Source of the DNA: the human T2T-CHM13v2.0 reference genome, Homo sapiens | Assembly (NCBI RefSeq): GCF_009914755.1 | Contig: NC_060926.1 | Reading direction: 5' to 3' (one strand) | Length of the DNA stretch: 64,000 nucleotides | Notes under the pieces: generated by a model | Databases searched by the model: none | What the model was told of the DNA's origin: nothing | What the model saw: only the letters and a program-made list of their open reading frames with translations | Position numbers and translations under genes: made by a program | Shown here: in pieces, positions 46,755-53,000 of the stretch | Layout of the letters: each line of letters begins with the position of its first letter | Position numbering within the stretch: the first letter of the stretch is position 1

Positions 46755-48369
46755 TATTTTGAGGTTATATTCTTTAACAGATCCTTTAGTGAGGGTCACT
46801 AAAGTATATACTTTATGTGTCTGAAAATATCTTTATTTTGCACTCATTTTATAATGAGACTACTCGTGTGTACAATTCCAGGTTGATAGTTGTTTTCTAG
46901 TGGTGCTTGACTACATTATACCAAAGTCTTCTGACTTCTGTGTTTTGACACCTCTTCCTTTGTAGATAATGTGTTTCTCTCTTTTGAGATAATCTCCTAA
47001 TTCTTTATGTTCTGTAGTTTTATCATTATGTGTCTATATTTAGATTTATCTTTATTTTACTCAGTGTAATGTCACTCTGAAAACTCATGTCTTTCCTCAA
47101 ATTTGAAAAGTGTTCACCTATTATGTCTTCAAATATCACTTTCCACCATGCTTTTCTGCTGAAACTCTCATTAAACAAAAGTTGGAGTGTGTTTTTCATG
47201 GCTCTTAAAAAATCTTTTGTCTTTTTATTCTCTTTTTCGCTGCATTTTGAATGGTTATCTCAGTTCCATTTTCCAATTTTCTAATTTCTGCTTTACTATG
47301 CCCATCTAGGCTTTATCTCATTTGTTACATTTTTAATTTTAAGACTGTTTTTCATTTCCAAGGTTTCTAATAAATTATTGTTCATAGCTACCTGTTCTTG
47401 TTTTATATTCTTTAAGTATTCATTTAACTGGTTAAGGTATGCTAAAAATCCTTAAAGAATCTTGGTAAGACCATTTCGTAAAATTATTCTCATCTAGAGA
47501 ATATTTGTGTTCAAATCATTGGCTTCAATTAGTTTCTTAGCAAACAAGCATTAAAATTTTTAATTGGGTTGATAAGCTCACTTTGAATCAGAAGTTTATT
47601 TTCATCCTCCCCACCCTTTTCCTTTTTCTGTCTAGCAATTTTATGGAAATTTCCACTTGGAGTTTGGGGCCGTTGGTCTAGAGCTAGATTATAATGATAG
47701 CTTCTGACCCATGGAGCTTTTCTTTTTATGATACTGTTTGCATAAGAATGTGATAATTTTCCTTTTTCTAATATTAGTAAATTTACTTTTTGTTCATGAT
47801 TGCCTTACACAACTTTTCAATCTACTTATTTATATATTTTGCTAACTTTTTTTTTATTTTTATTTTTTATTTGTTTATGTTAACTTTTGTTGAATGACTA
47901 TTCAGTGGAGCCATTGTGTTAAGTACATTGGAGACAACCTTGTGAGATAAGTAGTGGTTTGTGTGTGTCTGTGTGTGTATGTGTGTAGCTCCCTCTTTTC
48001 TAGAGCTTATCACTACCCTTTCAACTTCAGATCAATTTTATCTTACGAACTTTCAAATAATTCAGTAAGTGTTTTCTTTAGTGTCTGGCTTCTTTCACTC
48101 AACAGTATATGGCCAGCACAATTTTTATTTTTAGAATTCTGCCTTATAAAGTGAAAATATCCATTGATGTTTTTATTTAAACACCTTTTCCCCTCTTCCA
48201 TCTTGTTCTTCTCTGACTTCTCTGCTTAGACCCCATTGCCCCAAAGTTACAGCTTTGTCTCTAAAGTTGCCTTCAGTTGCATTATCATAAGTGAGTTGCT
48301 ATGTTTATTTCTTTCTAGAAGGTTTTTGGGAATATATAAGAGAGTGATGTGGGCATAAAGATGAAACTT

Positions 48370-48409
48370 AGACGAGATCGGGCACATTCAGGGTGGTATG
48401 GCTATAGAC
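48370..48409 (-). pseudogene. 3'-truncated 5S rRNA retrocopy (nt 1-40), inverted at the 5' end of an L1
   Basis: Reverse complement GTCTATAGCCATACCACCCTGAATGTGCCCGATCTCGTCT vs 5S GTCTACGGCCATACCACCCTGAACGCGCCCGATCTCGTCT: 36/40, all mismatches at CpGs. Confidence 0.93.
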
Positions 48410-50063
48410 ACGAGCATTCCTATACACCAATAATAGACAGACAGAGAGCCAAATCATGAGTGAACTCCCAGTCACAATTGCTACAAAGAGAATAAAATAC
48501 CTAGGAATACAACTTACAAGGGATGTGAAGGACCTCTTCAAGGAGAACTACAAACCACTGCTCAAAGAAATAAGAGAGGACACAAACAAATGGAAAAACA
48601 TTCCATGCTCCTGGATAGGAAGCATCAATATCGTGAAAATGGCCATACTGCCCAAAGTAATTTATAGATTCAATGCTATCCCCGTCAAGCTACCATTGAC
48701 TTTCTTCACAGAATTAGAAAAACTACTTTAAATTTCATATGGAACCAAAAAAGAGCCCGTATAACCAAGACAATCCTAAGGAAAAAGAACAAAGCTGGAG
48801 GCATCACACTACCTGACTTCAAACTGTACTACAAGGCTACAGTAACTGTATATGCAGAAAACAGAAACTGGACCCCTTCCTCACACATTATACAAAAATT
48901 AACTCAAGATGGATGAAAGACTTAAATGTAAGACCTAAAACCATAAAAACCCTAGAAGAAAACATAGGCAATACCATTCAGGACATAGGCATGGGCAAAG
49001 ACTTCATGACTAAAACACCAAAAGCAATGGCAAAAAAAGCCAAAATTGACCAATGGGATCTAATTAAACTAAAGAGCTTCTGTACAGCAAAAGAAACTAT
49101 CATCAGTGCAAACAGGCAAACTACAGAATGGGAGAACATTTTTGCAGTCTATCCATCTGACAAAGGGCTAATATCCAGAATCTACAAAGAACTTAAGCAA
49201 ATTTACATGAAAAAAATCAAACAACTCCATCAAAAAGTAGGTGAAGGATACGAACAGACACTTCTCAAAAGAAGACATTTATGCAGCCAACAAACATGAA
49301 AAAAAGCTCATCATCACTGGTCATTAGAGAAATGCAAATCAAAACCACAATGAGATACCATCTCACGTCAGTTAGAATGGCGATCATTAAAAAGTCAGGA
49401 AACAACAGATGCTGGTGGAGAGGATATGGAGAAATAGGAACGTTTTTACACTGTTGGTGGGAGTGTAAATTAGTTCAACCATTGTGGAAGACAGTGTGGT
49501 GATTCCTTAAGGATCTGGATCCAGAAATACCATTTGACCCAGCAATCCCATTACTGGGTATATACCCAAAGGATTATAAATCATTCTACTATAAAGACAC
49601 ATGCACACATATGTTTATTGCAGCACTGTTCACAATAGCAAAGACTTGGAACCAACCCAAATGCCCATCAATGATAGACTGGATGAAGAAAATGTGGCAC
49701 ATATACACCATGGAATACTATGCAGCCATAAAAAAGGATGAGTTCATGTCCTCTGCAGGGACATGGCTGAAGCTGGAAACCATCATTCTTAGCAAACTAA
49801 CACAGAAGCAGAAAACCAAACACCACATGTTCTCACTCATAAGTGGGAGTTGAACAGTGAGATTACATGGACACAGGGAGGGGAACATCACACACTGGGG
49901 CCTGTTGGGAGGTGGTGGGCTAGGGGAGGGATAGCATTAGGAGAAATACCTAACGTAGATGGCGGGTTGATGGGTGCAGCAAACCACTATGGCACTTGTA
50001 TACCTATGTAACAGACCTGCACATTCTGCACGTGTATCCAAGAACTTAAATATAATTTTTAAA
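48409..50063 (+). mobile_element. 5'-truncated L1PA7-like element with internal deletion and frameshifts
   Basis: Broken ORF2 fragments (48456-49853), 3' UTR, short A-tail; 16-bp TSD AAAGATGAAACTTAGA at 48357-48372 and 50064-50079. Confidence 0.93.
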
Positions 50064-53000
50064 AAAGATGAAACTTAGAATATATTGTTCTTGGTATATG
50101 TTTTGGAAATAATAGTAGAAAACCAACAGGTAAGAACTAAGACTGCGGTCAACCAGACTTGATAATTCTGTTCTTCAAAACACTTAGAAATGTTTAATAT
50201 TCCTTTTGTTTAGCCTGCCAGAGGTTAATCATAATTTTCTATTGTATTTTCATTTAATCTCAGAAACTGTCATGTACTTAGTTTGATGCCAGATCATGTT
50301 TTACAGTGGTCAATGGCTCAGTGGGAACTGATAGATAATTTACTGATTTGAAGGTGTTAACTGTTCTGGTCATCCTCTTAGAACTACTGCTGCACTTTCT
50401 AGTTTAAATGTGCACAGTATTTTCAGTAAGAATTTAAACAGTTTTTGATCTGGACCTGAGCACCCTATTTCAGCATTTGCAAATCAAATTGGGACCCATT
50501 CCTGTGCATTTTAGAATTATTTTTCTGGTGTGTCCTCTTACTATGCTGGGATAGGTTTCAAAAAGGAAATGTCTGTTTATTTTATTAACTCTTCCTCAGG
50601 AAAGACAGTGGTGAAGTGAGTCATTAGCACATTGTATTTTTCAATAGCTCTTTGACCTTAATCTCTGTGGCTATAAAATGAATGGGAAGATGCCTACTGT
50701 ATTATGAGTGATGAAGAAAGCCCATGATGGATTCATGTTACTGTGAATATTTCAAGGAGAAGTTAATGTAATATCTGTAGACTACAGTCATGAATCCAAG
50801 ACCAACAGAGTAAGTGTGTGTTGCTAGCAGCGTCGTCCATGTGTAGCACACATGTGTCAAGAAATAAATACAAGCTGTTCTCTGGGCTCTGATAATTCCT
50901 TTATCATGTTACCCCGAAGACAGAAGAATTGGAAGGAAAGGAGTTGCTGCCACAGTGGTTTGACTTTTTTCAGTGAGTCCAGTGATTGAATCCATCCTAT
51001 GGTGGATGGTCATTTTATAATCATGGGACAGTTACAGGGTGGTGGGTAGGCTTTTAATGGCAGTGGGGCCTAGATAGAAGCAAATATAATCACGAAGAGA
51101 CTCATACAATAGTCTTTGAAGCTGGCCCCAGAGAGCAGCATTTCACAAAAATGTTTCCACAGATGACCAGTTCAGAAGGATGTTAATAGATTGTGTGTTA
51201 AAAAGGGTCCCACAGCCAAATGTGCAGAAAAACCAAGTTAAACACAGAAAAACAAGAGATTTTGCCAAAGGACTCTTCGGGTTTTAAATATGCTTATGTA
51301 TATAGAATAGGCAGTGTTTCTCAAACATATTTGGCTGCAGAACCCCTCTTTTAGCAGAGGTCTCACAAAGTCTGTGTTTTGTGTAAAATACCTTGGGTAA
51401 AATTGCTCTAGAACATTGGTTTTCAAATATTTTTTTCTTAATCTCCTAGAATAATTTTGAAAAAGTTATGTGTTCACATATCTTTAAGCTGACATCTACA
51501 TTTTCATTAAAAAGTCAAGTGGATACAATAGGTTAATTTCTGGCACATTTATATTGTATGTGTGCATTAAATAATTTCATCAAAACTTTGGAGCTGCAGA
51601 ATTGGTTCATGCCATTGATAAACAGTCTCTGCCATTTAACCTAATTGGTAAAGCCAGATCTTCTTATGAAAGAAATCGGACTCATTACTTTTTCTGTGAC
51701 TCTATCCTGGGGTTGATATATTTGTGAATTGTTCATTTATTCTGTGCCTGTGAGAATTTTACCTTTCAAGACAGTGTTCTTAGAAAGGCCTAGAAAGATT
51801 CTGGATTGACAAGAGGTATGCCTTGACTTGGTCAAGAGCAAGAAGGCCCTGAGGAAAGGGGAAGATAGGAAAGGAAGATTGGCAAATATATTCTTAGGCA
51901 GATGACTTCAAAAAGAAACATCTGAAGGCTGAAGATCTATAGATTAGTTCCCTTAAAAGTGTCTAAGCCTGTGTGTACCCTATAGAATATCTTCATGTTC
52001 CTTCGTGGTATGTCTACCCAGTGCAAAGTTGTTCTTTGGAAGTTTAAGAAATATATATATTGTCTAAGTGATCCTTATTAAATAACTTAATAGTCTGTCT
52101 GGGAAAAGTATTTGTATTAAGAGGTATTTTTCTGCTTTCAAGTGGAAGGCATACTGCTAATGGAATTCTGTCATGGAATTTATATTTACTAGCAAAAGCT
52201 GAACACACACAGATGAATCTCCAGAAAGCTTCATATTTTCACACAGTAGAAAGATGCTCATGTCCTGTTCTTACCTTGTCCTGACTCCTGTTGGACATGC
52301 CTCATTTCCTGTATAAACTTGCGTCACTAAGAAGACAGTAAATTCTTACTCACTTTGTTAAACATACATACTTTCCTGTAGGAGAAGAGATGCATAAAAA
52401 TATATTTATTTCCCAGAAGGGCACTTGTGCTGTTCGTAATATATTATGCACCAAATGTCATACTTTCTTTATTCCCTGGCATTTTCAGCCCTGGCAACTG
52501 GCAGATTGTTTTGAAGTCAGAGAATATTTAAACTACAAGTAACCTTGGGGATAATATAGTTCAGCCCCTCTGTGTTACAGGAGAGGACACTGAGATCAAG
52601 AGAAACTCAGAGACTTGCTCTGGGTAACATAACATTTTGTCCTAGTTGGACCAAAAGCTAGATCTTAGTGGAATATTCCTCCTATTATTTTCCCCCATCC
52701 TCTCCATCCTTTTTAGAAATATGGCCTTGGACGAAATTATCTCTGTAAAATGGAATAATTATTCTTGTACTGCTCACCATCCAGAATTGTTGTGAAGTTC
52801 CAGTGAGATACGGTGTGCTATAGAAATGTAAAGAATCCTGATGAGGTAGAAGGAAGATGAAGGTCCTCACTTCATCGTCACCTTATCGCATCATTCCCAT
52901 GTACTGAAATACTTAGGCTGTTTTATGTTGGGTTGTTCATAGGGAGTCTCTTGTTATGCATGTATACCTGATTACTTTATATTCTTCTACTACCTGGTTA

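What the first reader, a model, noticed from the sequence alone, without database searches (positions are those of the whole stretch)
48357..50079. Inverted 5S rRNA (nt 1-40)/L1 chimera inside one TSD: apparent twin priming on a second RNA
Seen: a perfect 16-bp TSD encloses a 40-nt antisense copy of the 5S rRNA 5' end, then a sense 5'-truncated L1PA7-like sequence and an A-tail. The last 3 nt of the left TSD (AGA, 48370-48372) are complementary to 5S nt 38-40. The cDNA runs exactly to 5S nucleotide 1 and joins L1 with about 1 nt of overlap. All four differences from 5S are CpG decay. Known: L1 ORF2p makes small-RNA/L1 chimeras (e.g. U6-L1, same orientation), and twin priming inverts L1's own 5' part. 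Inference: the second target strand primed internally on a 5S molecule, plausibly ribosome- or RNP-associated, rather than on L1 RNA. This would be a fossil of 5S rRNA at the integration complex. Related 5S chimeras and tailless retrocopies may already be described; I cannot judge how novel this copy is.
Basis: partly seen in the sequence, partly recalled or inferred. Interest (0 to 1): 0.8.

Follow-up and report, generated by a model that had tools for sequence, protein, structure and literature searches.

The report
Known antisense 5S rRNA/L1 chimeric insertion
An old L1 insertion in an LTBP1 intron carries a backwards copy of the first 40 bases of 5S rRNA at its front end, made in one retrotransposition event; this type of insertion, and this very copy, are already published.

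Summary
A perfect 16-bp target-site duplication (48357-48372 / 50064-50079) encloses an antisense copy of 5S rRNA nt 40-1 (48370-48409). It matches 36 of 40 bases of the genome's own 5S gene. A sense, 5'-truncated L1 follows, with only 3 A's as a tail. The last 3 TSD bases are complementary to 5S nt 38-40. L1 homology starts at 48409, the base that also complements 5S nt 1, so the overlap is 1 nt.

The interpretation (a second, opposite-strand target-primed reverse transcription on 5S RNA, "twin priming") is the best reading, but it is not new. Law & Burns (Cell Genomics 2026; bioRxiv Feb 2025) catalogue 27 5S/L1 chimeras. They describe them as typically antisense, with 5S nt 1 at the L1 junction and truncation near nt 46 or 90, and they propose twin priming. 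Their Table S2 lists this exact locus: L1PA7, 5S:1-42 antisense, the same 16-bp TSD, and a flag for contemporaneous arrival.

My census of 76 decayed 5S copies shows the 5S arm is primed like the known solo "tailless" 5S retropseudogenes (Noll et al. 2015). They share the same end points and the same TSD/5S microhomology.

Verdict: real, correctly read, already known.

The parts
48357..48372 (+). Left copy of the 16-bp target-site duplication. The L1-side (bottom-strand) nick lies just before it (AT/AAAG).
   Evidence: The same TSD and cleavage site are listed in Table S2 of Law & Burns.
48370..48409 (-). Copy of 5S rRNA nt 1-40, antisense to the L1. The first 3 bases (48370-48372) are shared with the TSD.
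   Evidence: 36 of 40 bases match the genome's own 5S gene; the 4 differences are transitions in CpGs.
48368..48372 (+). TTAGA, the 3' end of the presumed top-strand primer. It can pair with 5S nt 38-42 if one G.T wobble is allowed.
   Evidence: Primer ends in TTAGA recur in solo 5S retrocopies that end at the same position.
48409..48409 (+). Junction base C, shared by the complement of 5S nt 1 and the first L1 base (1-nt microhomology).
48409..50060 (+). 5'-truncated L1 (ORF2 3' part and 3' UTR), in sense orientation; called L1PA7 by RepeatMasker according to the published table.
   Evidence: About 90-93% identity to other genomic L1 copies; subfamily name.
48846..48850 (+). Site of an internal deletion of about 175 bp in the L1, relative to other copies.
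   Evidence: the subject coordinates jump by 175-176 bases in 3 of the 5 copies compared (L012, L014, L016), by 174 in L010 and by 177 in L018.
50061..50063 (+). Remnant A-tail of 3 A's, continuous with the AAA that starts the right TSD.
50064..50079 (+). Right copy of the TSD. The 5S-side (top-strand) nick of the original target lies just after it (TTAGA/ATAT).

Best explanation
This is one L1-mediated retrotransposition event into an LTBP1 intron. The L1PA7 subfamily suggests roughly 30 million years ago (that age is recalled, not computed).

Shown: the anatomy. Inferred: the steps below.
1. The bottom strand was nicked at CTTT/AT, and its T-rich end primed reverse transcription on the poly(A) of an L1 RNA. 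This first cDNA ended inside ORF2.
2. The top strand was nicked 16 bp away, at TTAGA/AT. Its 3' end annealed inside a 5S rRNA at nt 38-40 (38-42 with a G.T pair) and primed a second reverse transcription, which ran off at 5S nt 1.
3. The two cDNA ends were joined through a single shared C.

The product is TSD, antisense 5S(40-1), sense L1, short A-tail, TSD.

The 5S arm is the same reaction that makes solo 'tailless' 5S retropseudogenes. Here it happened on the strand opposite an L1 TPRT, which is twin priming with a second RNA. No function is implied; it is an intronic fossil.
For: Anatomy of this locus:
- One perfect 16-bp TSD encloses both pieces, and there is no separate duplication around the 5S piece.
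- 5S identity is 36 of 40, ending exactly at nt 1.
- The TSD/5S overlap is AGA.
- The L1 starts at 48409 with 1 nt of overlap.

Published record:
- This locus is in Table S2 as L1PA7 + 5S:1-42 antisense, TSD 16 bp, EN motif yes, found_by_msa_prediction 1.
- The paper proposes twin priming for antisense 5S and tRNA chimeras.
- My hand tally of that table: 23 of 27 5S/L1 chimeras are antisense. In 18 of those 23 the annotated TSD and 5S coordinates overlap by at least 1 nt, and in 13 of 23 by at least 3 nt.

My census:
- 78 genome hits to a 23-base antisense 5S pattern carrying one decayed CpG gave 76 distinct copies.
- 44 of the 76 have a direct TSD (score 9 or more). After dropping two duplicates, 42 solo copies remain.
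- 32 of those 42 have at least 3 nt of TSD/5S overlap.
- Their 5S end points cluster at nt 40-43 (23 of 42) and nt 88-91 (13 of 42). These are the same hot spots as in the chimeras.
- Of 7 solo copies whose primer ends in AGA, 5 end in TTAGA, as this locus does.

Noll et al. 2015 argue for internal priming with target-site complementarity in 555 human tailless 5S copies.
Against: - The order of the two priming reactions cannot be read from the product. The 5S side could have been nicked first.
- The A-tail is only 3 nt.
- The L1-side site AT/AAAG and the 5S-side site TTAGA/AT are only loose matches to the L1 endonuclease consensus.
- A 3-nt overlap alone would arise by chance once in 64.
- T-richness of primer ends may reflect endonuclease preference rather than wobble pairing.
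- I could not see primate orthologues myself. Co-arrival rests on a flag in the published table.
- Rfam did not detect the fragment.
Confidence: 0.85

Rival explanations
1. Same single event, but the template was a pre-cleaved 5' fragment of 5S (cut in loop C near nt 40-46) rather than a full-length 5S primed internally. This is the 'targeted processing' idea raised by Law & Burns.
For: The paper notes that truncation near nt 46 is enriched in chimeras relative to all genomic 5S copies, and that the end points fall in loops C and D.
Against: - End points vary nucleotide by nucleotide (35, 40, 41, 42, 43, 50...) and track the 3' end of each target: at least 3 nt of overlap in 32 of 42 solo copies.
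- Noll et al. report finding no oligoadenylated truncated copies and no matching truncated 5S cDNAs (their data are described as not shown).
- A cleaved fragment would still need the same annealing step.
Confidence: 0.2
2. The L1 first-strand cDNA switched template onto a free 5S cDNA (or an antisense 5S transcript), or a free 5S cDNA was captured by end joining at the 5' junction. No priming from the target took place.
For: ORF2p-type enzymes can jump between templates (established knowledge, recalled). The 1-nt L1/5S junction fits either model.
Against: - It does not explain why the far end of the 5S piece shares AGA/TTAGA with the target.
- It does not explain why TSD and 5S overlap in 18 of the 23 published antisense chimeras.
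- It does not explain why the same primer end recurs in solo copies.
- No antisense 5S RNA is known to me.
Confidence: 0.07
3. Two independent insertions: a tailless 5S retrocopy and an L1 that happen to abut.
For: Solo tailless 5S copies are common: 555 reported. Several in my census sit inside older L1s, for example L055, L067 and L094.
Against: - Each insertion would carry its own TSD. Here a single perfect 16-bp TSD spans both, and nothing is duplicated around the 5S piece alone.
- In the nested cases L1 sequence continues on both sides of the 5S. Here it lies on one side only.
- The table's flags for this locus are found_by_close_proximity_50bp = 1, which the legend defines as supported by a clear MSA, and found_by_msa_prediction = 1.
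Confidence: 0.03

Closest known systems
5S rRNA/LINE-1 chimeric insertions catalogued by Law & Burns (Cell Genomics 2026, PMC13174262; bioRxiv 10.1101/2025.02.02.635956)
   Same: Everything matches: antisense 5S with nt 1 at the L1 junction, truncation near nt 40-46, one TSD, and an EN-like site. This locus is row 3 of the '5S' sheet of their Table S2, listed at hg38 chr2:33234405-33236061.
   Different: Nothing at the level of the locus. Their main text contains no word beginning 'microhomolog' or 'anneal'. It offers RNA processing as a possible cause of the truncation points, whereas the sequence here fits internal priming by target complementarity.
Twin priming (Ostertag & Kazazian 2001; cited in the paper, not read here)
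   Same: Two reverse transcriptions from the two ends of the staggered break, an inverted 5' segment, microhomology at the junctions, and one TSD.
   Different: The inverted segment is copied from a different RNA (5S rRNA), not from the L1 RNA itself.
Tailless retropseudogenes of small RNAs (Noll et al. 2015, PMC5322556; Schmitz et al. 2004, recalled)
   Same: A 5'-complete, 3'-truncated 5S copy without an A-tail, whose end point is complementary to the target and lies at a hot spot. 6 of the 42 solo copies in my census end at nt 40.
   Different: Solo copies are flanked directly by their own TSD. Here the TSD also encloses an L1 primed on the other strand.
U6/L1 and U3/L1 chimeras (template switching or RtcB ligation; Buzdin 2002/2003, Garcia-Perez 2007 and Moldovan 2019, seen only as citations or listings)
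   Same: A small-RNA copy fused to the 5' end of a truncated L1 within one TSD.
   Different: Those are in the same orientation as the L1, and U6 is full-length. This one is inverted and 3'-truncated, so a different step makes it.

Membership tests
Antisense 5S/L1 chimeric insertion (Law & Burns 2026) | A 5S fragment abuts the 5' end of an L1 in the opposite orientation | tested here: met
Antisense 5S/L1 chimeric insertion (Law & Burns 2026) | 5S nt 1 lies at the L1 junction, and the fragment is truncated near nt 46 or 90 | tested here: met
   nt 1 at 48409; the fragment ends at nt 40 (42 by the RepeatMasker annotation).
Antisense 5S/L1 chimeric insertion (Law & Burns 2026) | One TSD of 7-17 bp encloses both parts, at an EN-like site | tested here: met
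   A perfect 16-bp TSD. The site AT/AAAG is a loose match; the paper scores it 'Yes'.
Antisense 5S/L1 chimeric insertion (Law & Burns 2026) | Both parts are present or absent together across species | not testable with these tools
   No primate genomes are held. The published table flags found_by_msa_prediction = 1; I did not see the alignment.
Twin priming | Microhomology between the target 3' end and the start of the inverted cDNA | tested here: met
   AGA, or TTAGA with one G.T pair.
Twin priming | The inverted segment derives from the L1 RNA itself | tested here: not met
   The inverted segment is 5S rRNA. No L1 copy matches query bases 1-52.
Tailless retropseudogene | 5'-complete, 3'-truncated, no oligo(A), end point complementary to the target | tested here: met
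   the same pattern appears in 42 solo copies.
Tailless retropseudogene | TSD directly flanks the small-RNA fragment alone | tested here: not met
   The best direct-TSD score for this locus (L045) is 2, against 9 or more in 44 of 76 copies. The real TSD lies beyond the L1.
U6/L1-type sense chimera | The small RNA is in the same orientation as the L1 | tested here: not met
   the only match is antisense.

The most novel reading that the evidence does not exclude
The truncation points of 5S in L1 chimeras may be set by where the T-rich 3' end of the nicked target can pair inside an intact 5S RNA, G.T wobbles included (for example TTAGA on nt 38-42). RNA cleavage would then play no part. On this reading antisense small-RNA/L1 chimeras are simply 'tailless' TPRT and L1 TPRT happening on the two strands of one target. 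Both nick sites should then look endonuclease-like, and 5S should be accessible in loop C at the integration complex. This refines the published 'targeted processing' suggestion. Noll et al. 2015 already anticipated it for solo copies.
Probability: 0.6. Interest if true: 0.25.

Novelty: already known. Interest (0 to 1): 0.12.

Why it matters
It is a clean textbook example showing that the L1 machinery can reverse-transcribe a second, unrelated RNA from the other side of the target break. That bears on how chimeric retrocopies and new SINE-like elements arise. Both the class and this exact copy are in print, so the locus adds no new biology. The only increment here is sequence-level support that the 5S arm is primed by target complementarity, in the same way as solo tailless 5S copies.

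Tried and rejected
- Rfam scan of 47800-50600 at E up to 10: no match. The fragment is too short for the 5S model, so I used the genome's own 5S gene instead.
- Listing all genomic copies with a 16-base core: 488 hits, but only the first 100 were listed and the chr1 gene array filled them. I switched to a 23-base pattern with one decayed CpG, which gave 78 hits, all listed. That sample is therefore biased towards old copies carrying that particular change.
- L1 reference: the two 10-kb stretches fetched as full-length L1 candidates share only about 1.7 kb of homology. My L1 database therefore covers mainly the 3' 3 kb of L1, plus whatever other repeats lie in those stretches. Chimeras with 5' L1 parts or with Alu among the 32 copies of low direct-TSD score could have been missed.
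- The published chimeras could not be fetched in this assembly because there is no coordinate conversion. The overlap tally comes from the table's coordinates, counted by hand. Some rows (chr8:138803451, chr21:39928046) could not be resolved by eye.
- Buzdin et al. 2003 (PMC169886) is not held. Earlier findings of this scan were not open.
- A 5S-derived SINE as the source was considered and rejected: the match starts exactly at nt 1 and differs from the gene only at CpGs.
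Full report
**What is there**

The window reads: left flank, AAAGATGAAACTTAGA (48357-48372), 37 further bases, an L1, AAA, AAAGATGAAACTTAGA (50064-50079), right flank. 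The 16-mer occurs only at these two places in the window and never on the other strand.

I took the genome's own 5S gene from the chr1 array that Rfam RF00001 finds; all 47 scored matches lie there. With window 48409 set as the complement of 5S nt 1, 36 of 40 positions (48370-48409) match the antisense 5S. No other place in the window reaches 30 of 40 on either strand.

The four differences are transitions inside CpGs. Two of them fall in the same CpG, so 'all four are CpG decay' is slightly overstated.

The last three TSD bases, AGA, are also the complement of 5S nt 40-38. Over five bases (TTAGA against the complement of nt 42-38) 4 of 5 match, and the odd one is a T opposite G41.

Rfam itself reported nothing in 47800-50600 at E up to 10. 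I put that down to the fragment being only a third of the model.

**The L1 junction**

I searched window 48357-48560 against the whole genome. The search scored 40 of 682 candidates: the locus itself and 39 L1 copies. Homology starts at query base 53 (window 48409) in 35 of the 39, at base 54 in 3 and at base 58 in 1. None extends into the 5S part.

In an anchored comparison of 29 of these copies, 28 carry C at 48409. The two bases before it are AT in most L1 copies but GA in the window, as 5S requires.

The L1 part is about 90-93% identical to other copies and lacks about 175 bp at 48846/48850. The A-tail is only three A's beyond the TSD.

**What is already in print**

A full-text search for '5S rRNA', 'twin priming' and 'chimer' found 5 papers, of which 3 were listed. 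I read passages, section 10 and the '5S' sheet (sheet 2; part 1 of the file) of Table S2 of Law & Burns, Cell Genomics 2026 (PMC13174262; bioRxiv February 2025).

- They report 27 5S/L1 chimeras, 'typically in antisense', with the start of 5S at the L1 junction and truncation at positions 46 and 90.
- 20 of these have 7-17 bp TSDs.
- They propose twin priming for antisense chimeras.
- Row 3 of their 5S sheet is this locus: hg38 chr2:33234405-33236061, L1PA7, 5S:1-42 on the opposite strand, both TSD copies AAAGATGAAACTTAGA, cleavage AT/AAAG, EN motif yes, found by proximity 1 and found by MSA prediction 1.

**What the table adds on mechanism**

This is a hand tally.

- 23 of the 27 chimeras are antisense and 4 are sense.
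- In 18 of the 23 antisense rows the annotated TSD and 5S coordinates overlap by at least 1 nt, and in 13 of 23 by at least 3 nt. In 5 rows there is a gap of 2-7 nt.
- Two other rows end at nt 40-42 with TSDs ending in AGA or TCAGA (chr4:13724180 and chr18:65544969).
- Two rows end at nt 48-50 with 8-nt overlaps whose single mismatch is again a T opposite a G (chr5:147420975 and chr10:23866849).
- The paper's main text contains no word starting 'microhomolog' or 'anneal'. It raises 'targeted processing' of 5S as a possible cause of the end points.

**An independent census**

- A 16-base CpG-free core of antisense 5S hits 488 places in the genome, against 0 and 1 for the reversed control. The listing was swamped by the gene array.
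- A 23-base pattern that requires one decayed CpG gave 78 hits (control 0 and 0), all listed. I fetched all of them, which gave 76 distinct copies.
- 44 of the 76 have a direct TSD immediately around the 5S fragment (score 9 or more) and 32 do not.
- Among the 32 are this locus, four full-length copies, diverged old copies and copies nested in older L1s (L055, L067, L094).
- Only this locus has sense L1 starting at the first base after 5S nt 1 with no L1 on the other side. My L1 reference covered mainly the 3' 3 kb, so other chimeras may have been missed.
- After dropping one segmental duplicate and one inner tandem copy, 42 solo copies remain.
  - Their end points are nt 40-43 in 23, nt 50-55 in 5, nt 88-91 in 13 and nt 35 in 1.
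  - Their TSDs are 10-19 bp long.
  - TSD/5S overlap is at least 3 nt in 32 of 42 and at least 1 nt in 40 of 42.
  - The dinucleotide after the nick is AA in 17 of 42.
  - T makes up 116 of the 252 bases at the last six primer positions.
- Seven solo copies have primers ending in AGA. Five of these end in TTAGA, one in TCAGA and one in GTAGA. This locus ends in TTAGA.

These solo copies are the 'tailless retropseudogenes' of Noll et al. 2015 (abstract, passages and sections 15-16 read). That paper reports 555 from 5S in human, end points in single-stranded regions, target complementarity, and an argument for internal priming over pre-cleaved RNA.

**Mechanism**

Shown: the anatomy. Inferred: the steps.

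1. The bottom strand was nicked at CTTT/AT and primed on the L1 poly(A).
2. The top strand was nicked 16 bp away, at TTAGA/AT. Its end paired with 5S nt 38-40 (or 38-42 with a wobble) and primed a second cDNA, which ran off at nt 1.
3. The two cDNA ends were joined at one shared C.

The 5S arm cannot be told apart from a solo tailless 5S insertion. The event is best described as L1 TPRT and tailless-type TPRT on opposite strands of one target, which is twin priming with a second RNA. Which nick came first cannot be told.

**Rivals**

- A pre-cleaved 5S fragment served as the template (about 0.2). The anatomy is compatible with this. The way each end point tracks its target, and Noll's negative searches, count against it.
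- Template switching onto, or capture of, a free 5S cDNA (about 0.07). This does not explain the target/5S microhomology.
- Two independent insertions (about 0.03). The single TSD excludes this.

**Verdict**

Both the class and this exact copy are published, so the finding is already known and of low interest. What remains is a modest mechanistic refinement: the end points are set by target complementarity and shared with solo tailless copies. This refinement is partly anticipated in print.

The age attached to L1PA7 is from memory. The contents of Ostertag & Kazazian 2001, Schmitz 2004 and Buzdin 2002/2003 are also recalled; those papers were not read here, and Buzdin 2003 is not held.

Noticed in passing
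window 48846-48850: The L1 copy lacks about 175 bp of ORF2 sequence that all five other L1 copies compared carry (the subject-coordinate jump is 174-177 bases). The published table lists the L1 as one unbroken fragment.
   Followed up: partly
L049/L050 (G000:C2:164607472-164607548): Two antisense 5S(1-43) tailless copies lie 54 bp apart in tandem. Each is preceded by the same ACCATTAACCTATTAGA target sequence, giving TSD-5S-TSD-5S-TSD. This is either a tandem duplication or a repeated insertion at one site.
   Followed up: no
L078 (G000:C8:77336590-77336612 region): A solo 5S retrocopy whose 18-bp TSD overlaps the 5S alignment by 15 nt. This is an unusually long imperfect complementarity between the target and 5S nt 40-55.
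   Followed up: no
L055, L067, L094: Solo tailless 5S copies nested inside older L1 elements, with L1 sequence continuing on both sides. These could be mistaken for 5S/L1 chimeras if only one flank were inspected.
   Followed up: partly
L001 versus L002-L008 (chr1 5S array): One array member (L001) differs from the other seven fetched copies somewhere outside 5S nt 1-60, and it scores slightly higher against the Rfam model (115.9 against 114.6 bits).
   Followed up: no
L098-L100 (G000:C16:14.8-18.5 Mb): Three 5S fragments with near-identical flanks, apparently copies carried by segmental duplications on chr16. No direct TSD was detected.
   Followed up: no
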